DNA of 64,000 nucleotides from a virus. Its lineage: Duplodnaviria > Heunggongvirae > Uroviricota > Caudoviricetes. The stretch's first letter is position 1. Every line of letters begins with the position of its first letter. The notes under the pieces are model-generated. The model ran no database searches. It saw only the letters and a list, made by a program, of their open reading frames with translations, and was not told the origin of the DNA. The position numbers were made by a program, and so were the translations under genes. The DNA lies in IMG/VR virus record IMGVR_UViG_2531839524_000004; one strand, 5' to 3'. Below are positions 15,457-29,751 of this stretch, piece by piece.

Positions 15457-15855
15457 ATGCATACTGCACTTAACGCATCTCGTTCTATTCAGACGATAAG
15501 AGACTGTACCAAGATGATCGCATCGGTTCCGTTGCGACATTGGAATGACTCGCTCCAAATTCGTGAAATGAACAAACCGGGTATGCTTAAGGATCAGCGT
15601 TTCATCGTTAACCTTAAAAGTGACGTTGAAGAAGGCAAGTTTACCATCAAATTGTTTGCAGAAATGATGGTGCTCAACAATCGGTTACGTTTTCTTGTTA
15701 AGCCAGAAAAACAGTTTCCCGATGTTGTGCGTTGTGAACAGGATGCTTTCTATGAGATTGAAAGCAAAATAGCTAAATTTATCAAAGATAAATACCGCGT
15801 AGATGTTAAAATAGCGAAACTGGATTCATCTACGGATATGCGGCTTGCTAACTAA
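15457..15855 (+). CDS. Hypothetical protein (first gene of a two-gene cargo operon)
   Basis: 132-aa ORF with its own upstream intergenic region; no motif recognised. Confidence 0.5.
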   Translation: MHTALNASRSIQTIRDCTKMIASVPLRHWNDSLQIREMNKPGMLKDQRFIVNLKSDVEEGKFTIKLFAEMMVLNNRLRFLVKPEKQFPDVVRCEQDAFYEIESKIAKFIKDKYRVDVKIAKLDSSTDMRLAN

Positions 15856-16632
15856 ATGTCACCATCATTCATAGCAGAGTATTCAAAAGTACTGTCTGGT
15901 TTCCCTGAATGTGAAGCAAGAGAGAAAATCAGAGTTGGCTACATGGTTAACTCTGATTTTTCTGTTTTACGGCTCACAGAGTGGTCCTTGATCGGGTCTA
16001 ATTATGATTACTGTTTGACAGTGTCATTTGTAGGCGACCCTGATGCAGATTGGCTTCAAGAACATGCAATGGATCTTGACGAGCAGGGGTATTCAGAAGC
16101 AGAGATAGTTCATAGTGTTCGTGAATTAGTTGGTGATGAGCAAGAAGATGATGACGGCATTCAGATCGCCAGGTTCGTCTACAAACGATTCCAGTTTCGC
16201 TCACAAAAAGGCTCTCATCTTGGGGTCCAGATTAAAGGGGCATTTGTAACCCCTTCAAAGGAACAAAAGGGACTTGCTAGAAGAGTTTACAATTTCCTTC
16301 TCAATTGGCATGACCATGTGGTATGTGATGACCATCAGACGGTTTACGGTGCCAGAATTTGGGCGGTCGGTATGCTTCTGGTCGGGCGTGTCCAAATCTA
16401 TGACAATTTAAACAAAGAATTTATAGATGTCCTTGTTGAAGGTGGTATTGGGCAGAATGGCGTCAAACCGTGGGACGCGCTGCTATTGAGCAGCGAGGCC
16501 CAGTTACGTCACTGGAACCCTATGGCCGTCAGCATAGACCCATCTAGTCAGATTCTCGCCATCATCTCCAAAGAAGACCGTCACATTGAAGTGGGCGTTA
16601 CAACTTTTGACGCCAGGTCTACCAACCATTAA
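15856..16632 (+). CDS. Hypothetical protein (second gene of the cargo operon)
   Basis: 258-aa ORF abutting the previous gene; followed by a rho-independent terminator; acidic stretch 'GDEQEDDDG'. Confidence 0.5.
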   Translation: MSPSFIAEYSKVLSGFPECEAREKIRVGYMVNSDFSVLRLTEWSLIGSNYDYCLTVSFVGDPDADWLQEHAMDLDEQGYSEAEIVHSVRELVGDEQEDDDGIQIARFVYKRFQFRSQKGSHLGVQIKGAFVTPSKEQKGLARRVYNFLLNWHDHVVCDDHQTVYGARIWAVGMLLVGRVQIYDNLNKEFIDVLVEGGIGQNGVKPWDALLLSSEAQLRHWNPMAVSIDPSSQILAIISKEDRHIEVGVTTFDARSTNH

Positions 16633-16640
16633 TTCCTAAA

Positions 16641-16661
16641 CCCGCTTCGGCGGGTTTTTGA
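16641..16661 (+). terminator. Rho-independent terminator
   Basis: 'CCCGCTTCGGCGGG' hairpin followed by TTTTT. Confidence 0.65.
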
Positions 16662-16787
16662 TGTTTCAGTTTCTTTATCAACCTACTAATTAACCTTTAC
16701 ACCGCAGCCGTAGGCATTTAGGCTATATCACATATAAGAAAACAAGTTGTTTCAGACGATAATTATATACGCAAAGGGAACTCTCCA

Positions 16788-17456
16788 ATGACCAAGATCT
16801 TTGTGGTTGGCGGCACAAAGGGCGGGCCTGGCAAATCCACCGTTGCCCAGCAAATTGCCGTTTGCCTGAAAGTCAAAAAGAAGAAGAAGGTTTATATCAC
16901 TGATATAGATATTCAGCGCACGACAACAAGCTGGTGTGAAGACCGTCGACAGAACGAAGACCTTGAGCTGATTCCTTTTGCATACGTTCAGGATGACATC
17001 ATTAAGCACCTAAAATCGCTTCAGGGTAGAGCTGAGTTTGTAGTGGTAGATGCTGGTGGCTTTGACTCCGAAATTCAGCGACAAGCGATGCTGATGGCCG
17101 ACGTTATCATTATCCCGCTGCGTCCTAAGCGTCGTGATTTGAAATCTTTACGTGACATCGATCCTATTATCGACAATGTTCGTAATGTAAACGATAAAGT
17201 GAAGGTCCGCGCGGTCATGAACCAGTGCCCGGCTTTGCCATCACAAGTGTCTCGCATTTTGGCGGCTAAAGAGATTGTCGAGACGTTTGGCATCGAGTCT
17301 GCGCCAGTCAATTTATATAACCGCAACGTCTATGATGATGCGGAAGAGTCTGGTCGTTCTATCTTTGAAATGACCGGTAGCGAGCGCGACAAAAAGGCGG
17401 AAGCCGAGTTTGAAGAATTTGTAGATTATCTGTTGAGTCTGGAGGAAGAAGAATAA
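16788..17456 (+). CDS. parA: ParA-family partition ATPase
   Basis: Deviant Walker A 'GGTKGGPGKST' near the N-terminus; 222 aa; followed by a small DNA-binding partner gene. Confidence 0.8.
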   Translation: MTKIFVVGGTKGGPGKSTVAQQIAVCLKVKKKKKVYITDIDIQRTTTSWCEDRRQNEDLELIPFAYVQDDIIKHLKSLQGRAEFVVVDAGGFDSEIQRQAMLMADVIIIPLRPKRRDLKSLRDIDPIIDNVRNVNDKVKVRAVMNQCPALPSQVSRILAAKEIVETFGIESAPVNLYNRNVYDDAEESGRSIFEMTGSERDKKAEAEFEEFVDYLLSLEEEE

Positions 17457-24366: not shown

Positions 24367-24837
24367 GTGAAAGCTGATTTGTCAAAAATCCCTTCTATTT
24401 CAGGAAATAACGGTTATTCACTTCGTTGTGAGGAAGTAAAGATAAACGGTGAGTCGGCATATTGCAGCTATTCCGTTTGCCAGCACACCATTCTTGCCTT
24501 CAAAGAAAACCGTCTTCCTCGAACTTCTTTCCAGTCGTGCGCAACCGCTATCAAAGCAGGCAAATGCAAGGCGTTAAAAATGATGGTTGAAGAGATTCGT
24601 AAAGGAGAATCTCTGTATTTCGAAGATATGACCGCGCTCATTAAGGAGGTTGAAGAACGGAATAAACAAGCCAGAACTATAAAACGAAAACGTGACAGTG
24701 TAACGATTAATAGCATGGTTAAGAAGAGCACCACATCACAAACAGCGATCACTGACGTGTATGCGGCGTTGCTTGAAGAAACAACAAAAGAAACACATGA
24801 GCAAATCGATCAACATATGGAGGCAAAACAACAATGA
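24367..24837 (+). CDS. Hypothetical protein
   Basis: 156-aa ORF with several Cys near the N-terminus; stop overlaps the ligase start. Confidence 0.45.
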   Translation: MKADLSKIPSISGNNGYSLRCEEVKINGESAYCSYSVCQHTILAFKENRLPRTSFQSCATAIKAGKCKALKMMVEEIRKGESLYFEDMTALIKEVEERNKQARTIKRKRDSVTINSMVKKSTTSQTAITDVYAALLEETTKETHEQIDQHMEAKQQ

Positions 24838-26156
24838 AAAAGTTGATCGCACTTAAGCATAAGCTGGACGAAATGAAAGCTATGGGAACCAATGCAAAAA
24901 AAGAGGCATTGGCCAACATGGATGACTTCGAGCAAAGCATGGTTTCATTGATGCTCAACCCTTTCATCCGTTTTGGGGTAAAGAAATACAAAGTGGCAGA
25001 GCCGCTTAGTGAGTCCGTCCCAAGTGACGAAAAAGCCATTGATATACTGAATAAGCTGGCCTCTCGCGAGCTGACGGGGAACGCAGCAATAGCTGCTGTT
25101 GAGTCTATCGTGGCGTCAATGTGCGCCGATGGGCAGGACGTGTTCCGTCGTTTCCTCTTAAAAGATCCGAAAGCTGGCGTTGGGATTAGCCTATGTAACA
25201 AGGTTTTTGAAAATCCCATTCCGAAATTCGAGGTGCAGCTGGCGTCACCGTATAAAGAAAAAGGCGACAAATACCCCTTCAAGCCAAATCCTAAAGCCAA
25301 ATGGCCGATGATTGGCAGTCTTAAGCTCGATGGTTTGCGAGTAATTTGCGAGGTTATTGTTGACGAGGAAGAGGTTAACTTCCTTTCTCGTACTGGTAAT
25401 CCAATCACGTCTCTCGATCACCTAAAGCCAGCCATGCTCGAATTAGGCAAACTTTCAGGCCACAAACACATCTTCTTCGATGGTGAAGGAACTGCCGGTT
25501 CATTTAACCAGTCCGTATCTGCATTGCGCAAAAAGAACGTGCAGGCAATTGGCGCTATTTATCATGTTTTCGACTTCTTCCTACCGGAATGGCGAGCACA
25601 GGCTAAATCCAAAGAGTATGCAAAGACAGGTATGAAGCTGAAAGAGCGCCTGGCTATGCTGGTGGCGTTGTTCAAAAACGATCGCAGTGAAGGCTACACA
25701 CAAGACATTCACCTGCATCCGTTCTATATCATCCATAGCCACGAAGACTTCATCGAACGCTTCATGAAACGCCTGGACGATAACGAAGAAGGGGAGATGG
25801 GCAAAGATCCGAACTCTGTTTACGAGTTTAAACGTACCCGCAGCTGGTGGAAGTTAAAAGACGAAGATTCAGAAGATGGTGAAATTATCGACTTTGAGCC
25901 GGGCGACCCGGACTCTGGTTTTGCCAACACACTTGGAAAAATTGTTATTCGTCTTGAAAACGGCGTCATCGTTCGTGCGAGCGGTATTAAGCATAAATAT
26001 CTGGACGAGATCTGGAACAACAAAGAGAAGTACCGTGGTCGTATTGTTGAGGTTCATTGTCACGAGAAAACACCGGATGGCAGCTTACGCCACCCCCGAC
26101 TGAAATGGCCGCGTTGCTTACGCGATACAGAAGATCGAATCGGAGATAAAGAATGA
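24834..26156 (+). CDS. ATP-dependent DNA ligase
   Basis: Adenylation motif KxDG in 'MIGSLKLDGLRV'; 440 aa. Confidence 0.7.
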   Translation: MKKLIALKHKLDEMKAMGTNAKKEALANMDDFEQSMVSLMLNPFIRFGVKKYKVAEPLSESVPSDEKAIDILNKLASRELTGNAAIAAVESIVASMCADGQDVFRRFLLKDPKAGVGISLCNKVFENPIPKFEVQLASPYKEKGDKYPFKPNPKAKWPMIGSLKLDGLRVICEVIVDEEEVNFLSRTGNPITSLDHLKPAMLELGKLSGHKHIFFDGEGTAGSFNQSVSALRKKNVQAIGAIYHVFDFFLPEWRAQAKSKEYAKTGMKLKERLAMLVALFKNDRSEGYTQDIHLHPFYIIHSHEDFIERFMKRLDDNEEGEMGKDPNSVYEFKRTRSWWKLKDEDSEDGEIIDFEPGDPDSGFANTLGKIVIRLENGVIVRASGIKHKYLDEIWNNKEKYRGRIVEVHCHEKTPDGSLRHPRLKWPRCLRDTEDRIGDKE

Positions 26157-26332
26157 TGCTCGGCTGGATGATTGCATTTTTAGCAGTTGGGTTTTTCATA
26201 GGTATTGTGGTGATGTCCAGTTGCATCAATGACTACATTAAAAGCGGTGTTATAGAAAGACGCGGTCGTATTTATCGCATTGTAGAAATAACCAACACCC
26301 TGAAGGAGATTAAGGATGATCGTATTAAGTAA
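26153..26332 (+). CDS. Small membrane protein (59 aa; below the ORF-track length cut-off)
   Basis: ATGA overlap with the ligase stop; 'MMLGWMIAFLAVGFFIGIVVMSS' TM segment then 'RRGRIYRIVEITNT'; paralogous to the ORF at 26528. Confidence 0.4.
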   Translation: MMLGWMIAFLAVGFFIGIVVMSSCINDYIKSGVIERRGRIYRIVEITNTLKEIKDDRIK

Positions 26333-26531
26333 ACGGGAGAAGGAAACGCTTCATGAAATCAGTAAGTGGCCGGAGTTCCCTGAGTACTGGAAGCCTAAAA
26401 CGCGAGCTAAGTTAGAGCGTTTAGGGTTGGTTGCAAACGTTTCTGAAACGTGGTGTTCGGCCAACTACCAGTTAACTGATAAAGGGAAAGTATTGCTACA
26501 GCAATTAGTAGAATCAGGAGTGTTAAAATGA
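26316..26531 (+). CDS. Hypothetical small protein
   Basis: 71-aa ORF overlapping its neighbours in a tightly packed string of small genes. Confidence 0.4.
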   Translation: MIVLSKREKETLHEISKWPEFPEYWKPKTRAKLERLGLVANVSETWCSANYQLTDKGKVLLQQLVESGVLK

Positions 26532-26680
26532 TTCCATACATCTCATTAGCTTTTATGGGTGGCTTCCTTATCGGCTTCGGCATCTGTCGTGATTTAATTA
26601 AGCAGGAACTTAAAACCAAAACACTGTGCATCGGAAAGCGTGTGTATCGGGTAGTTCATGAAACAAAGGTGAAAAAATGA
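26528..26680 (+). CDS. Small membrane protein (50 aa), paralog of 26153-26332
   Basis: 'MIPYISLAFMGGFLIGFGIC' TM segment then 'GKRVYRVVHETKV', same architecture as the 59-aa protein; ATGA overlaps at both ends. Confidence 0.4.
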   Translation: MIPYISLAFMGGFLIGFGICRDLIKQELKTKTLCIGKRVYRVVHETKVKK

Positions 26681-26967
26681 GCAATTTAACTTCTTGGGAA
26701 TGGTGGTTGGCCACCTATTTCTTAGCGGCCGGAGTCGCATTCGCCTTTTACGTAGGTCAGTTAGTCGTAAAACTGTTGCTGATTAAATTTGCTAGTCATA
26801 AACGTATCGATGATGGTCTGTGGCGTCTTGGCACCCTGGTGGAAACTCGCTACGGGCAACTTAAGGAGAACGAAACCATTACTATCCAAGCGAAACGATT
26901 CACTGCCACCATTACAAGAACACCTAGTCGTAGAGTGGCCTTGATCAAAAAAGTCACAACCGAATAA
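26677..26967 (+). CDS. Small membrane protein
   Basis: 96 aa with N-terminal TM 'WWLATYFLAAGVAFAFYVGQLVV'. Confidence 0.45.
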   Translation: MSNLTSWEWWLATYFLAAGVAFAFYVGQLVVKLLLIKFASHKRIDDGLWRLGTLVETRYGQLKENETITIQAKRFTATITRTPSRRVALIKKVTTE

Positions 26968-27202
26968 AAACATATTGATAAGTATTTACTTACTTATCTT
27001 TTGTGTATAAGATGACTTTGTTTTCGTTGAGACGCGACTGTTTGAACTTAAATACAAGTGCAAACGAAGAAGTCTATCTGGCAGTAGCCTAATAAGCCAA
27101 ACACCAGCGAGGTCAGTTTCCAGCCTCGTTACCGAAATGGGACACACTGAGCGAGTGGGATTGCAGAACGCAGGAGGGAACATTCATGTTCCCTCCGATG
27201 AA

Positions 27203-27281
27203 GTAACAGAATGGGCGGTTGGTATATTTTCAACTCCATATGACTCCCGGATTCTTAGCCACTGACCGCCCATTCTGTTAC
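27203..27281 (+). ncRNA. Hairpin element A (17-bp perfect stem, 45-nt loop), member of a three-copy family
   Basis: 'GTAACAGAATGGGCGGT' pairs with 'ACCGCCCATTCTGTTAC'; loop contains 'TTTTCAACTC' and 'GACTCC' shared with element C. Confidence 0.45.
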
Positions 27282-27356
27282 GTCATTTTGTTCAATTATG
27301 TCGTTTATACTGGGTTAAAAAGCGGCGACGTAGCCCGGCTGGTATGGTTAGCCAGC

Positions 27357-27479
27357 ACACAACGTTGAGGCCATTACATTTTTATCAATTCTAAGGTTCT
27401 ATTCACAGAGATACCGGCGAGCGTTGATATGTAACATGTTGGGCAAACATTCAATCGGAGTAGTGGCCTCAACGTTGTG
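27357..27479 (+). ncRNA. Hairpin element B (16-bp perfect stem, ~90-nt loop)
   Basis: 'CACAACGTTGAGGCCA' pairs with 'TGGCCTCAACGTTGTG'; stem closely resembles element C; loop begins 'TTTTTATCAATTC'. Confidence 0.45.
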
Positions 27480-27745: not shown

Positions 27746-27820
27746 GATGGTGTAGCTCAGCGGTAGAGCAGTTGGCTGTTAACCAACTGGTCGGTGGTTC
27801 GAATCCACCCACCATCGCCA
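27746..27820 (+). tRNA. tRNA-Asn (anticodon GTT)
   Basis: Acceptor stem GATGGTG/CACCATC, anticodon loop CTGTTAA, T-loop GGTTCGAATCC, 3' CCA encoded. Confidence 0.8.
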
Positions 27821-27825
27821 ATTTA

Positions 27826-27912
27826 GGGGAGTTAGTCCGTAGAGGTAGCGGTGTAGACTGTAAATCTACTGTCATGGCGACTCGGGTGGTTCGACTCCAT
27901 CACTCCCCACCA
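27826..27912 (+). tRNA. tRNA-Tyr (anticodon GTA), long variable arm
   Basis: Acceptor GGGGAGT/ACTCCCC, anticodon loop CTGTAAA, T-loop GGTTCGACTCC, encoded CCA; 87 nt. Confidence 0.7.
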
Positions 27913-27916
27913 AATT

Positions 27917-27992
27917 GCCGGTTTAGCTCAGTTGGTAGAGCGCCTGCCTTGTAAGCAGGATGTCAGCGGTTCGAGTCCGTTAACCGGCACCA
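27917..27992 (+). tRNA. tRNA-Thr (anticodon TGT)
   Basis: Acceptor GCCGGTT/AACCGGC, D-arm TAGCTCAGTTGGTAGAGC, anticodon loop CTTGTAA, T-loop GGTTCGAGTCC, encoded CCA. Confidence 0.8.
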
Positions 27993-28209
27993 ACACAACA
28001 GGAAAGAGCATTGAAACCCGCCGAGACTGCCCTGTTTTAAGCGTAAGTCCGTGCAAACGTCATACAGTGCTCTTTTCGTTGTGGTTGATGCGCAGACTGA
28101 TGCGCGGAAAGAAATGCCCCAGCGACACACGAGGCGAGTTCACACACTGCAATGCAGTCAGTAGCCGGGGTCGCTAAGCCGGAGATCAGTACCGGTAACC
28201 ACAACAATT

Positions 28210-28296
28210 GGAGAGTAGGGAGCATGGTGCTCAAGCGGTCTTGAAAACCGTCCCATTGTGCAAACGATGATGGTTCGATTCCATTACTCTCCGCCA
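28210..28296 (+). tRNA. tRNA-Ser (anticodon TGA), long variable arm (tentative)
   Basis: Acceptor GGAGAGT/ACTCTCC, anticodon loop CTTGAAA, T-loop GGTTCGATTCC, encoded CCA; D-arm is unusual. Confidence 0.55.
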
Positions 28297-28450: not shown

Positions 28451-28473
28451 AAAGGGGCTTCGGCCCCTTTTTT
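28451..28473. terminator. Bidirectional rho-independent terminator
   Basis: 'AAAGGGGC-TTCG-GCCCCTTTTTT' with an A-tract on the other side; between the tRNA cluster and the convergent minus-strand gene. Confidence 0.65.
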
Positions 28474-28488
28474 GTTGAACAGTGCAAT

Positions 28489-29751
28489 TTACTTTGCATA
28501 GTCGCCCAATTTTAATATTTCGCGCTTATATTCATTAACCATGCTACTGGATTCAGTATAAATTCGATTTAAAAGATTATCGTTATCTTTATTTTCATTT
28601 ATCTTAATTAGTGCTAATTTATATTCATAGTCATCAAATGCCACAATTAAATGGTGGCCTGGGATTATATCTTCGTCACTCTTAAAGTATATATCTTCAA
28701 GTATGTAATCTAGTTGATTAGATTTTCTTTTCTCGATGTAATCTTCAGCCATAGCTATTACATCATTCCTGTCATTTAACCTGTTTTTTTCGGAAGGCAC
28801 ATCTTCGTAATGTTGCACGATTGAACAACCAATAAGGCGTGGGATGTAAACGTCAAAATGAGTAACTCTATCATTCGCGGTTTTAAGTAGTTCCTCAAAG
28901 TAGTTTCTTACATGTAAAGGCAACTTCTCAAAGTAATCATTAATTATAGGAGAACAAGGAGTTTTATAATTCATAAGAACCGACGGTACGAGCTTTGGGT
29001 GTCGAAACATCCAGTCCCTTTTAACGTCCGATGGAACATAATAACTTTTAATGATATTATCAAAATAATTTATCATTCGAGATTTGAATATTTTGTTGAA
29101 TCTAAGGTTTATGAATGTATCCAGATAAGGCATATTTGAATAAGCATCATCAAAAAATATTTCATCATTGAAAAAATCATATTTATTCAATAAACAACAC
29201 AGTTTTTCCGAATTAATATGTTCACAATAATCGATTTTTAATCCAAAGATAGCAATGATCAACTTCATCTGAGGTGGGATTTTAAAAATTAATTGTGACA
29301 CATACGCTCTTTTTTCCTTGAGACATTCCCCATCAATATAAAATGAACCATCCACATACTCAAATATATTAATAATATGCTTCACATACTGTATTACCTC
29401 ATGCTGTCTTACCAATGGATAATATAGTCTATGTAACTCATCGCTGTTTAAATTAATTTTGTGTTTATCGATAATTTGTTTTGCAAGAAGACATAACTCA
29501 TCATGTTGATTTAATAAGGAATCAAACCATTGTTTAAATGCACTCTTTCGCATTTCGAACAATGATTCAGTTGTTAATTGAAGGGCTGAAAAAGCTGCTT
29601 TTGCACTTTTTCTCGCTTCGTAGGCATTCCATGCTGTTGCTATAAAAGCAAATGCTGTAGCCAATGTTCCAACAGTTTGACCATTTAAAACAACCCAATC
29701 CCAAAAAATGACGGTGAGCAGTAGTATAATAATGAAAATTAAAAAAGGCAT
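28489..29751 (-). CDS. Membrane-anchored hypothetical protein encoded in an AT-rich island
   Basis: 420 aa; two N-terminal TM segments then a large soluble domain with no motif I recognise; locus is visibly much more AT-rich than surrounding phage genes. Confidence 0.6.
   Translation of the reverse strand: MPFLIFIIILLLTVIFWDWVVLNGQTVGTLATAFAFIATAWNAYEARKSAKAAFSALQLTTESLFEMRKSAFKQWFDSLLNQHDELCLLAKQIIDKHKINLNSDELHRLYYPLVRQHEVIQYVKHIINIFEYVDGSFYIDGECLKEKRAYVSQLIFKIPPQMKLIIAIFGLKIDYCEHINSEKLCCLLNKYDFFNDEIFFDDAYSNMPYLDTFINLRFNKIFKSRMINYFDNIIKSYYVPSDVKRDWMFRHPKLVPSVLMNYKTPCSPIINDYFEKLPLHVRNYFEELLKTANDRVTHFDVYIPRLIGCSIVQHYEDVPSEKNRLNDRNDVIAMAEDYIEKRKSNQLDYILEDIYFKSDEDIIPGHHLIVAFDDYEYKLALIKINENKDNDNLLNRIYTESSSMVNEYKREILKLGDYAK

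What the first reader, a model, noticed from the sequence alone, without database searches (positions are those of the whole stretch)
26153..26967. String of overlapping small genes including two paralogous single-TM peptides missed by the ORF track
Between the ligase gene and the tRNA region, five small ORFs overlap by ATGA junctions. Two of them (59 aa at 26153-26332; 50 aa at 26528-26680) are below the 60-aa cut-off and share an architecture: one TM helix followed by a conserved basic 'G(R/K)(I/V)YR(I/V)V(E/H)(I/E)T' tail. A third (26677-26967) is also membrane-anchored. Small membrane peptides of this kind often act in superinfection exclusion, lysis timing or toxin-like membrane functions.
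Basis: seen in the sequence. Interest (0 to 1): 0.5.

Follow-up and report, generated by a model that had tools for sequence, protein, structure and literature searches.

The report
Paralogous small membrane genes behind ligase
Four tiny, tightly packed genes at the end of a phage-plasmid's DNA-replication operon are real and conserved, and two of them are duplicated copies of one membrane-anchored peptide; they are already catalogued as proteins of unknown function, and what they do is still untested.

Summary
The window is an SSU5-like phage-plasmid, 98.6% identical to Escherichia phage Cyrano. Behind the ATP-dependent DNA ligase gene lie four small genes, not five: o1 (59 aa), o2 (71 aa), o3 (50 aa) and o4 (96 aa). 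Three junctions are ATGA overlaps and one is a 17-nt overlap. All four are real genes: dN/dS is 0.08-0.2 at dS of about 1 or more, Shine-Dalgarno sites are conserved, and each matches a PHROG of unknown function. They occur in hundreds of Enterobacterales phage-plasmids, including Y. pestis pMT1.

o1 and o3 belong to one family. The profile-profile E-value is 8e-6, the alignment is ungapped, bridging sequences connect them, and they share GxxxG and R-x-Y-R. Each has an N-terminal membrane anchor and a conserved basic tail that is probably cytoplasmic. o4 is also membrane-anchored but unrelated. o2 is soluble and looks weakly like a winged helix.

The genes are silent in the Cyrano lysogen, lie 10 kb from the lysis cassette, and are individually lost in natural variants. 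My best guess, at low confidence, is an accessory lytic-cycle module that tethers a cytoplasmic partner, possibly DNA or the replisome, to the membrane. This is ordinary "hypothetical protein" territory.

The more interesting feature is next door: a conserved, structured RNA (about 27018-27373) carrying a tmRNA-like tag frame (ANEEVYLAVA**) but no tRNA-like domain.

The parts
24834..26156 (+). ATP-dependent DNA ligase gene (440 aa). It is the upstream gene of the string, and its stop codon overlaps the o1 start (ATGA).
   Evidence: Pfam DNA_ligase_A_M E 5.8e-13; PHROG 114 E 5.9e-126. Annotated as CYRAN_36. Junction sequence.
26153..26332 (+). o1: 59-aa bitopic peptide (alternative start 26156, as in SSU5). 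TM helix at residues 7-25, then tail RRGRIYRIVEIT and the conserved acidic E52/D55/D56.
   Evidence: PHROG 4381 E 1e-39. 40 homologue clusters. dN/dS 0.08-0.14 against SSU5 and Klebsiella. KD19 2.55. SD GGAG conserved. Cleanly deleted in pMB3825A_2.
26171..26227 (+). o1 transmembrane segment, including G13-x-x-x-G17.
   Evidence: Hydropathy. G13 and G17 are at least 90% conserved across both paralogue families.
26267..26293 (+). o1 tail motif R39-I-Y-R-I-V-E-I-T47.
   Evidence: R39, Y41 and T47 invariant in 29 homologues. R, Y, R invariant across both families.
26316..26531 (+). o2: 71-aa soluble basic protein, a probable small winged-helix protein. It overlaps o1 by 17 nt and o3 by ATGA.
   Evidence: PHROG 4054 E 1.7e-45. 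No hydrophobic segment. Only sub-threshold winged-helix hits: HTH_45 in 5 of 6 members (best E 0.0035), Csa3 C-terminal wHTH E 0.0015, TubR and PA1607 E 0.4-0.6. dN 0.24 with dS saturated.
26528..26680 (+). o3: 50-aa bitopic peptide, paralogue of o1. TM helix at residues 2-20, then tail GKRVYRVVHET.
   Evidence: PHROG 6302 E 1.4e-36. 30 homologue clusters. dN/dS 0.16-0.21. KD19 1.84. hhalign against the o1 family E 8e-6.
26636..26665 (+). o3 tail motif K37-R-V-Y-R-V-V-H-E-T46.
   Evidence: K37, R38, V39, Y40, R41, V43, H44 and E45 are invariant in 23 homologues. Tail entropy is 0.55 against 1.15 for the TM segment.
26677..26967 (+). o4: 96-aa bitopic protein with an N-terminal TM segment and a cytoplasmic domain of about 60 aa. 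It is unrelated to o1 and o3. RefSeq carries the misnomer 'C-type natriuretic protein'.
   Evidence: PHROG 4507 E 1.8e-58. 42 homologue clusters. dN/dS 0.08-0.10. KD19 2.0. hhalign against o1 and o3 E 0.1 and 0.016, TM only. The AF2 model (helix 6-61 plus hairpin 67-80) has mean pLDDT of only 67.6.

Best explanation
Shown. o1 to o4 are four genuine, translationally coupled genes at the 3' end of the replication-gene operon (helicase, primase, two unknowns, ligase) of an SSU5-like phage-plasmid. o1 and o3 are paralogues of one narrow family: a short N-terminal membrane anchor carrying GxxxG, a 20-residue linker, and an invariant R-x-Y-R-x-V..T tail.

Inferred. o1, o3 and the unrelated o4 insert N-out/C-in, so their conserved basic parts face the cytoplasm. 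The GxxxG helices let them associate in the membrane. The module is switched on with the replication genes in the lytic cycle and is accessory, not essential.

Committed guess. The tails, together with the small winged-helix-like o2, hold a cytoplasmic partner at the inner membrane. The most likely partner is phage-plasmid DNA or replisome/recombination proteins. This would resemble the way phage phi29 p16.7 anchors replication to the membrane.

The confidence figure refers to this mechanistic guess. The descriptive layer (real genes, paralogy, membrane anchoring) I hold at 0.9 or above.
For: Real genes:
- dN/dS 0.08-0.21 with dS of about 1 or saturated.
- SD sites conserved inside the upstream coding sequence.
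- PHROG matches of E 1e-37 to 1e-59.
- The same four-gene order in a deeply diverged Klebsiella element.

Paralogy: plus bridging sequences from an HMM search of 1.84 billion proteins.

Operon context:
- ATGA coupling to the ligase.
- No promoter-like or strong terminator-like site between ligase and o4.
- All replication genes are on the same strand.

Lytic timing: 0-3 FPKM in the LB lysogen, like the ligase, and the genes are not listed among morons.

Cytoplasmic tails: no K/R residues N-terminal of the TM segment, and 9-13 K/R after it.

The tail as the functional part: the invariant positions lie in the tail, and in the o3 family the TM segment is variable apart from GxxxG.

DNA link: o2 gives repeated sub-threshold winged-helix hits.

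Accessory status: natural loss of o1 (L003), of ligase-o1-o2 (L008), of o1-o2 (L010), and of the o3 C-terminus plus o4 (L007).
Against: - There is no experimental datum on translation, localisation, topology or partners.
- There is no sequence or structural relative with a known function.
- The AF2 models have low confidence and give one long helix for o1, with no defined tail fold.
- Basic residues after a TM helix are also expected simply from the positive-inside rule.
- The winged-helix assignment of o2 is below every curated threshold.
- The Cronobacter element lacks o2 altogether.
- In cell-culture and macrophage conditions o2 to o4 read 3-4 fold higher than the ligase. This is noisy for such short genes, but it hints at some independent expression.
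Confidence: 0.3

Rival explanations
1. Host-takeover peptides. The membrane-tethered tails bind and inhibit or redirect a host machine that works at the inner face of the membrane, such as the divisome, a protease or a transporter. This is how small early phage membrane proteins like SPO1 gp56 act. The two paralogues would have diverged to different targets.
For: - Early or lytic operon position and silence in the lysogen.
- Specific conservation of the tail.
- Patchy presence and individual dispensability, typical of accessory takeover genes.
- o1 carries an extra invariant acidic patch (E52, D55, D56) that o3 lacks, suggesting sub-functionalisation.
Against: No similarity to any known inhibitor. 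This reading does not explain the nested winged-helix-like o2 or the constant pairing with o4. It is untested.
Confidence: 0.25
2. Superinfection exclusion during lytic growth. This is the first reader's idea, modelled on T4 Imm/Sp, which are early lytic membrane proteins. The peptides would alter the inner membrane or an injection-associated host protein so that a second phage genome cannot enter.
For: Single-pass small membrane proteins expressed with early genes. The family is confined to one phage-plasmid lineage, as expected for lineage-specific exclusion.
Against: - They are not expressed in the lysogen, so there is no prophage-type exclusion.
- Almost nothing is exposed to the periplasm (0-6 residues before the TM segment of o1 and o3), and the conserved part is predicted to be cytoplasmic.
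- No PADLOC hit.
Confidence: 0.15
3. Toxin-like or lysis-timing membrane peptides. These would be Hok/TisB-like depolarising peptides, or holin/antiholin-type regulators.
For: Size and a single hydrophobic helix. There is a sub-threshold PHROG holin hit for o4 covering the TM segment only (E 0.027).
Against: - The lysis cassette is elsewhere, at about 15465-16883.
- No Hok_Gef or holin family match at E up to 1.
- No antisense RNA, own promoter or leader architecture; the genes are coupled inside an operon.
- The TM helix is the less conserved part in the o3 family.
- The predicted topology is the opposite of Hok.
Confidence: 0.08
4. The small ORFs are chance reading frames, and the resemblance between o1 and o3 is a composition artefact of two hydrophobic stretches.
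For: The sequences are very short. The tail-only alignment on its own is only modestly significant (361 of 20,000 shuffles).
Against: - dN/dS of 0.2 or below across lineages with saturated synonymous sites.
- Conserved SD sites and conserved synteny at under 40% protein identity.
- The o4 control shows that TM-only similarity scores E 0.016-0.1, against 8e-6 for o1/o3.
- Bridging sequences score 32-37 bits to the o1 group and 50-54 bits to the o3 group.
Confidence: 0.02

Closest known systems
PHROG 4381 (o1), 4054 (o2), 6302 (o3), 4507 (o4). These correspond to SSU5_045 to 048, the pMT1/pHCM2-type hypothetical proteins, and CYRAN_37 to 39.
   Same: These are the same genes: full-length matches at E 1e-37 to 1e-59, the same order behind the ligase, and 64-98% identity.
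   Different: Nothing differs apart from allelic variation. PHROGs files o1 and o3 in separate families. The link between them is the only addition made here. No function is recorded for any of them.
Bacillus phage phi29 p16.7, the membrane anchor of phage DNA replication (from established knowledge; not tested by sequence beyond Pfam)
   Same: A small early protein encoded with replication genes, with an N-terminal TM anchor and a cytoplasmic helical/basic C-terminal part. o4 has this general layout, and o1 and o3 are shorter versions.
   Different: No sequence similarity and no Pfam hit at E up to 1. The tails of o1 and o3 (about 25-35 aa) are far too short for the p16.7 DNA-binding domain. 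DNA binding was not tested. The host and phage lineage are different.
T4 Imm/Sp and prophage Sie proteins (P22 SieA, HK97 gp15): superinfection exclusion membrane proteins (from established knowledge)
   Same: Small phage inner-membrane proteins. Imm and Sp are also made early in the lytic cycle.
   Different: No homology. Not expressed from the resident phage-plasmid. The predicted functional part is cytoplasmic, not in the membrane or periplasm.
Hok/Gef and other type I toxin peptides
   Same: About 50 aa, with one N-terminal hydrophobic helix and a charged C-terminal part.
   Different: No Hok_Gef match. No antisense RNA or mok-type leader, and the genes are embedded in an operon by ATGA coupling. 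The predicted topology is opposite. Conservation is concentrated in the tail, clearly so in the o3 family.

Membership tests
PHROG 4381 / 6302 (SSU5-like phage-plasmid small hypothetical proteins) | Full-length profile match | tested here: met
   o1 matches phrog_4381 at E 1.1e-39 over 1-59/59. o3 matches phrog_6302 at E 1.4e-36 over 1-50/50.
PHROG 4381 / 6302 (SSU5-like phage-plasmid small hypothetical proteins) | Position directly behind the ligase gene in elements of about 100-120 kb in Enterobacterales | tested here: met
One o1/o3 superfamily (proposed here) | Colinear, ungapped alignment with shared GxxxG and R-x-Y-R at fixed spacing | tested here: met
   (M, R39, Y41, R42 invariant; G13, G17, T47 at 90% or more).
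One o1/o3 superfamily (proposed here) | Similarity beyond that of any two TM-first peptides | tested here: met
   hhalign E 8e-6, probability 84%, against o4 controls of E 0.016-0.1. Segment-preserving shuffle 61/50,000. Bridging sequences.
Hok/Gef type I toxins | Match to Pfam Hok_Gef | tested here: not met
   No hit at E up to 1.
Hok/Gef type I toxins | Own transcript with overlapping leader ORF and antisense RNA | tested here: not met
   The ORFs are coupled by ATGA or 17-nt overlaps inside the ligase operon, with no promoter-like site nearby on either strand.
Holin / antiholin | Encoded in the lysis cassette next to the endolysin | tested here: not met
   Holin, endolysin, Rz and Rz1 lie at about 15465-16883, 10 kb upstream.
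Holin / antiholin | Match to a holin family | tested here: not met
   Only o4 against phrog_2359 at E 0.027, confined to the TM segment. No Pfam hit.
Prophage-type superinfection exclusion / defence genes | Expressed from the resident element (moron-like) | tested here: not met
   log2(FPKM+5) is 2.3-3.0 in LB, which is 0-3 FPKM. The genes are not in the published moron list.
Prophage-type superinfection exclusion / defence genes | Match to a known defence-system model | tested here: not met
   PADLOC gives no hit for o1, o3 or o4.
Prophage-type superinfection exclusion / defence genes | Blocks entry or growth of a second phage | not testable with these tools
   Needs plating or DNA-entry assays.
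phi29 p16.7-like replication anchors | N-terminal TM anchor, encoded and expressed with replication genes | tested here: met
   This concerns architecture and context only.
phi29 p16.7-like replication anchors | Sequence membership (Pfam family of p16.7) | tested here: not met
   No Pfam hit at E up to 1 for any of the four proteins.
phi29 p16.7-like replication anchors | Binds DNA or replication proteins at the membrane | not testable with these tools
   Needs biochemistry or localisation experiments.
Winged helix-turn-helix proteins (o2) | Profile match above the curated threshold | tested here: inconclusive
   HTH_45 hits in 5 of 6 members, with best E 0.0035 against a curated cut-off of 25.5 bits (the window protein scores 12.3). 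Csa3 wHTH E 0.0015. TubR and PA1607 E 0.4-0.6 on the recognition-helix/wing region.

The most novel reading that the evidence does not exclude
o1, o3 and o4 form a hetero-oligomeric inner-membrane platform, held together by GxxxG-mediated helix packing. Their R-x-Y-R tails, together with the winged-helix-like o2, would tether replicating or recombining phage-plasmid DNA to the membrane. That would be a previously undescribed membrane-anchoring system for replication in a Gram-negative temperate phage-plasmid, analogous to but unrelated to phi29 p16.7/p1.
Probability: 0.12. Interest if true: 0.55.

Novelty: new member of a known kind. Interest (0 to 1): 0.25.

Why it matters
SSU5-like phage-plasmids are common in clinical Enterobacterales. 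The string was found in 752 PLSDB plasmids, including Y. pestis pMT1. The adjacent conserved noncoding element is on plasmids of this kind in 259 of 5,426 complete E. coli genomes. Most of their small genes have no function assigned.

Showing that these four are genuine, selected genes, and that two catalogued 'unknown' families are one family with a sharply conserved cytoplasmic tail, gives a clean target for genetics: four short deletions and a three-residue motif mutant. In itself the result is modest, because it refines the annotation of known hypothetical proteins and reveals no new mechanism.

The neighbouring tmRNA-like RNA noticed in passing is likely to be the more consequential feature of this locus.

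Tried and rejected
1. o4 as a third paralogue. hhalign of full-length profiles gave E 0.1 and 0.016, confined to the TM segment. hhalign of the tails alone gave E 0.64. The visual resemblance of 'AKRFTATITRT' to 'GKRVYRVVHET' is therefore not supported.

2. Structure prediction. For o1 (using the combined alignment) AF2 gives one long helix, pLDDT 73, with the tail at 58-74. For o4 it gives a helix plus a hairpin, pLDDT 67.6. Both are too uncertain for a fold search, so none was run.

3. Sequence searches for a characterised relative. Pfam, NCBIfam, PADLOC and PDB profiles gave nothing significant. The o4 hit to tetrabrachion (E 0.14-0.25) was treated as coiled-coil-like noise.

4. The RefSeq name 'C-type natriuretic protein' for o4. 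No NCBIfam model supports it and no paper holds that phrase together with 'plasmid'. I treat it as a propagated misnomer.

5. The Pfam Phage_gp49_66 tag on homologue P0102. This protein is a deletion chimera of the o4 N-terminus with the downstream CYRAN_41-type gene.

6. Promoter and terminator scan around the string. It found fewer promoter-like sites than in shuffles and nothing between ligase and o4, so it gives no evidence for a separate transcription unit.

7. Tail-only pairwise alignment. On its own it is only weakly significant (p about 0.02). The case for paralogy rests on the profile comparison, the ungapped register and the intermediate sequences.

8. A canonical tRNA-like domain for the tmRNA-like RNA. 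ARAGORN on the window and nine loci, Rfam at gathering score over the whole window, and a T-arm pattern scan found only the ordinary tRNAs.
Full report
**What the window is.** A megablast of 24800-27300 shows the window is an SSU5-like phage-plasmid. It is 98.6% identical to Escherichia phage Cyrano (OV696614, the plasmid-prophage of E. coli LF82) and 79% identical to Salmonella phage SSU5. Window coordinates equal Cyrano coordinates minus 11274. The finding lies at the end of a same-strand block annotated as helicase, primase, two hypothetical genes and DNA ligase. Behind it come about 780 nt without genes and then four tRNA genes.

**The observation.** The ORF list and the sequence confirm four ORFs:
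- o1 at 26153-26332 (59 aa)
- o2 at 26316-26531 (71 aa)
- o3 at 26528-26680 (50 aa)
- o4 at 26677-26967 (96 aa)

There are four small ORFs behind the ligase, not five. The ligase/o1, o2/o3 and o3/o4 junctions are ATGA overlaps, and o1/o2 overlap by 17 nt. Each start is preceded by a GGAG-type Shine-Dalgarno sequence at -6 to -12. These sites are conserved in SSU5, two Klebsiella elements and a Cronobacter element, even though they lie inside the preceding coding sequence.

**Are they genes?** Yes, on four grounds.
- Nei-Gojobori comparisons of the window with SSU5, pMT1, an Enterobacter plasmid and Klebsiella plasmids give dN/dS of 0.08-0.14 (o1), 0.16-0.21 (o3) and 0.08-0.10 (o4). o2 gives about 0.08, with dS saturated. 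In all cases dS is about 1 or higher. The ligase gives 0.03.
- Each protein matches one PHROG of unknown function end to end, at E 1e-37 to 1e-59.
- The 900-bp string is found in 752 PLSDB plasmids of Klebsiella, Escherichia, Enterobacter, Salmonella, Yersinia pestis (pMT1), Citrobacter, Shigella and Cronobacter.
- The same order (ligase, o1-like, o2-like, o3-like, o4-like) is kept in K. pneumoniae pMB7868_2, where the proteins have diverged so far that o1 scores only 43 bits against the window copy.

The genes are annotated in SSU5 (SSU5_045 to 048) and in RefSeq plasmids. Only o1 is missing from the Cyrano record. 'Missed by the ORF track' therefore reflects the 60-aa cut-off and is not a database gap.

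**Paralogy of o1 and o3.**
- Pairwise BLASTP gives 31% identity over 45 residues (E 3e-5 for the single comparison).
- Family alignments (29 and 23 clusters) compared by hhalign give E 8e-6 and probability 84% over 48 colinear columns.
- As a control for 'any two TM-first peptides', the o4 family scores only E 0.1 and 0.016 against them, on the TM segment alone.
- A shuffle that permutes the TM and tail segments separately reaches the real score in 61 of 50,000 trials. The tail alone gives p of about 0.02.
- A joint alignment needs no internal gap. It fixes M1, R39, Y41 and R42 (o1 numbering) in all 26 sequences, and G13, G17 (a GxxxG) and T47 in 90% or more.
- A profile of this alignment, run against 1.84 billion representative proteins, found only 23 clusters. 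Among them are intermediates that combine features of both groups. P0119 has an MIPYI N-terminus with a ...RRRVYRVVEIT tail. P0115 has ...DWIKQDIKSGIVRFGNRVYRVVHET. They score 32-37 bits to the o1 group and 50-54 bits to the o3 group.

All members with source information sit on contigs of 105-120 kb from Enterobacterales. o1 and o3 are thus one narrow family, which PHROGs currently splits in two.

**Architecture.** o1, o3 and o4 each have one N-terminal hydrophobic stretch (best 19-residue Kyte-Doolittle hydropathy window, KD19, 2.55, 1.84 and 2.0). There is no Lys or Arg before it and 9-13 after it. By the positive-inside rule (an inference) they insert N-out/C-in, with only 0-6 residues of o1 and o3 outside.

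In the o3 family the tail is far more conserved than the helix (mean entropy 0.55 against 1.15). In o1 the two are about equal (0.61 against 0.67), but o1 carries an extra invariant acidic patch (E52, D55, D56). o4 is unrelated to o1 and o3.

o2 has no hydrophobic segment. It repeatedly gives sub-threshold hits to the recognition-helix/wing part of winged-helix domains: HTH_45 in 5 of 6 members, the Csa3 C-terminal domain, TubR and PA1607. A winged helix is therefore probable but not established.

The AF2 models are of low confidence: o1 is one long helix (pLDDT 73), and o4 is a helix plus hairpin (pLDDT 68). I did not use them for fold searches.

**Context and expression.** The lysis cassette (holin, endolysin, Rz, Rz1) is at about 15465-16883, 10 kb away. 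No promoter-like site or strong terminator-like site separates the ligase from o4.

In the published LF82 RNA-seq re-analysis (PMC9928086, S1 Table; values are log2(FPKM+5)), CYRAN_37 to 39 read 2.3-3.0 in LB. That is 0-3 FPKM, the same as the ligase, and the genes are not among the morons. In the other conditions they reach log2(FPKM+5) of about 3.5-6.3 (roughly 6-70 FPKM). That is up to 3-4 fold above the ligase, which is noisy for genes this short.

**Natural variants.**
- o1 is cleanly deleted in E. coli pMB3825A_2. Alignments with the same 84% coverage in two pieces occur in another E. coli plasmid and in E. albertii and Shigella plasmids.
- A K. pneumoniae plasmid has lost most of the ligase, o1 and most of o2, but keeps o3 and o4.
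- Another K. pneumoniae plasmid has replaced the o3 C-terminus and o4.
- A Cronobacter element carries only one peptide, followed directly by an o4-like gene.
- pMT1 keeps all four, although an IS100 element lies upstream and no ligase gene is annotated there.

The genes are therefore individually dispensable. A peptide plus o4 is the commonest minimal pair.

**Interpretation.** It is firmly shown that the genes are real, that o1 and o3 are paralogues, that three of the proteins are membrane-anchored, that the genes are coupled to the replication operon, that they are silent in the lysogen, and that they are accessory.

It is inferred that the tails are cytoplasmic, that the helices associate through GxxxG, and that the genes are expressed in the lytic phase.

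My committed but weak mechanistic guess (0.3) is that the module tethers a cytoplasmic partner to the inner membrane. The partner is most plausibly phage-plasmid DNA or replication/recombination proteins, with o2 as the DNA-binding piece. In function this would be like phi29 p16.7, but there is no sequence membership.

The rivals are:
- host-takeover inhibitors of a membrane-associated host machine (0.25)
- exclusion during lytic growth (0.15)
- toxin-like or lysis-timing peptides (0.08)
- chance ORFs (0.02, refuted)

**Novelty.** These are known hypothetical proteins, catalogued in PHROGs, RefSeq and SSU5. What is added here is evidence of selection, the merging of two PHROGs into one family with a defined motif, the topology inference, and the correction of the o4 misnomer. 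Interest is low to moderate (0.25).

**Noticed next door (not part of the finding).** The 'empty' stretch after o4 is more conserved than the genes. Column identity is 88% across E. coli, SSU5, pMT1 and Klebsiella, and about 79.5% to Klebsiella, where the coding string is about 69%.

It folds far better than shuffles (z = -7.25) and shows compensatory changes in several helices (6 of 106 pairs with only 6 sequences).

It contains a reading frame at 27063-27098: GCA AAC GAA GAA GTC TAT CTG GCA GTA GCC TAA TAA, which reads ANEEVYLAVA**. In SSU5 and pMT1 the frame reads ANEDTYLAVA*, and in Klebsiella ANDNQYLAVA*. The Tyr codon varies synonymously (TAT/TAC) and only positions 3-5 change. From established knowledge, the E. 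coli tmRNA tag frame is GCA AAC GAC GAA AAC TAC GCT TTA GCA GCT TAA TAA, which reads ANDENYALAA**.

Rfam gives sub-threshold matches of just this region to beta_tmRNA (17.3 bits, E 0.011; 14.4 bits, E 0.035; model positions 208-304 and 217-304) and to tmRNA_permuted. A 1-nt indel upstream breaks the frame relative to any conserved start codon, so this is not an ordinary ORF.

No tRNA-like domain was found by ARAGORN, by Rfam at gathering score, or by a T-arm scan. No feature is annotated there in the E. coli records listed, out of 259 genomes that carry it. The exhaustive 2014 tmRNA survey of RefSeq plasmids and phages reported ssrA only in mycobacteriophages, plus Bacillus phage G and the TLD-only DS6A (PMC4131195). 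No paper in the library links tmRNA with SSU5, pHCM2 or pMT1 elements.

This candidate 'message-domain-only' tmRNA-like RNA deserves its own follow-up.

Noticed in passing
window 27018-27373 (tag-like frame 27063-27098), + strand: This is a conserved, strongly structured noncoding RNA candidate directly after o4. Column identity is 88% across E. coli, SSU5, pMT1 and Klebsiella, the fold z-score is -7.25, and some pairs show compensatory changes. It carries a tmRNA-like tag frame, ANEEVYLAVA** (ANEDTYLAVA in SSU5 and pMT1, ANDNQYLAVA in Klebsiella; the E. coli ssrA tag is ANDENYALAA**). Rfam hits to beta_tmRNA and tmRNA_permuted are sub-threshold. No tRNA-like domain was found by ARAGORN, Rfam or a T-arm scan. 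No feature is annotated there in the E. coli records listed, out of 259 complete genomes that carry it, and it is absent from the 2014 tmRNA survey of plasmids and phages. It may be a message-domain-only tmRNA derivative, acting as a decoy, a two-piece RNA or something else. It is potentially more interesting than the finding itself.
   Followed up: partly
window 27358-27377 / 27460-27479; also 27198-27219 / 27265-27286 and 27173-27196: Long inverted repeats (arms of 20, 22 and 11 nt) lie in the same noncoding stretch. The first pair lies at or beyond the 3' edge of the best-conserved block. It could belong to the same RNA or be a separate element such as a terminator or an origin-like site.
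   Followed up: partly
window 27346-27373: A 28-nt stretch matches, at 100%, a sequence annotated 'CRISPR' in an E. coli chromosome (NZ_LR778147.1, 1705873-1705900). This suggests a host spacer that targets this phage-plasmid region (H90).
   Followed up: no
window 27050-27113: The tag-frame region has an 81%-identical 64-nt match at an unannotated chromosomal site in E. coli A28 (NZ_CP028747.1, 1586864-1586926). There may be a related element in a prophage (H89).
   Followed up: no
window 26677-26967 (o4) and homologues: RefSeq/PGAP names many o4 homologues 'C-type natriuretic protein'. No NCBIfam model or paper supports this, and it looks like a propagated misannotation.
   Followed up: yes
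window 27746-28296; Cyrano CYRAN_40: The window has four tRNA genes (Asn, Tyr, Thr, Ser), whereas Cyrano has three (no Tyr). The published 'moron' CYRAN_40 (15x background) lies antisense across the Cyrano tRNA-Thr and tRNA-Ser genes. Its RNA-seq signal is probably the tRNAs themselves.
   Followed up: partly
window 28489-29751, - strand: A 420-aa ORF with a hydrophobic N-terminus lies here, preceded on the + strand by a strong terminator-like hairpin (28451-28470). At the corresponding position Cyrano has different genes (CYRAN_41 and glutaredoxin). This looks like a variable cargo or hotspot gene. It was not examined.
   Followed up: no
homologue P0102 (metagenomic) against window 26677-26850 and the Cyrano CYRAN_41-type gene: This is a chimeric protein: the first 58 residues of o4 are fused to the C-terminus of the downstream Phage_gp49_66-type protein. 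Some elements have therefore deleted the whole noncoding RNA and tRNA region.
   Followed up: partly
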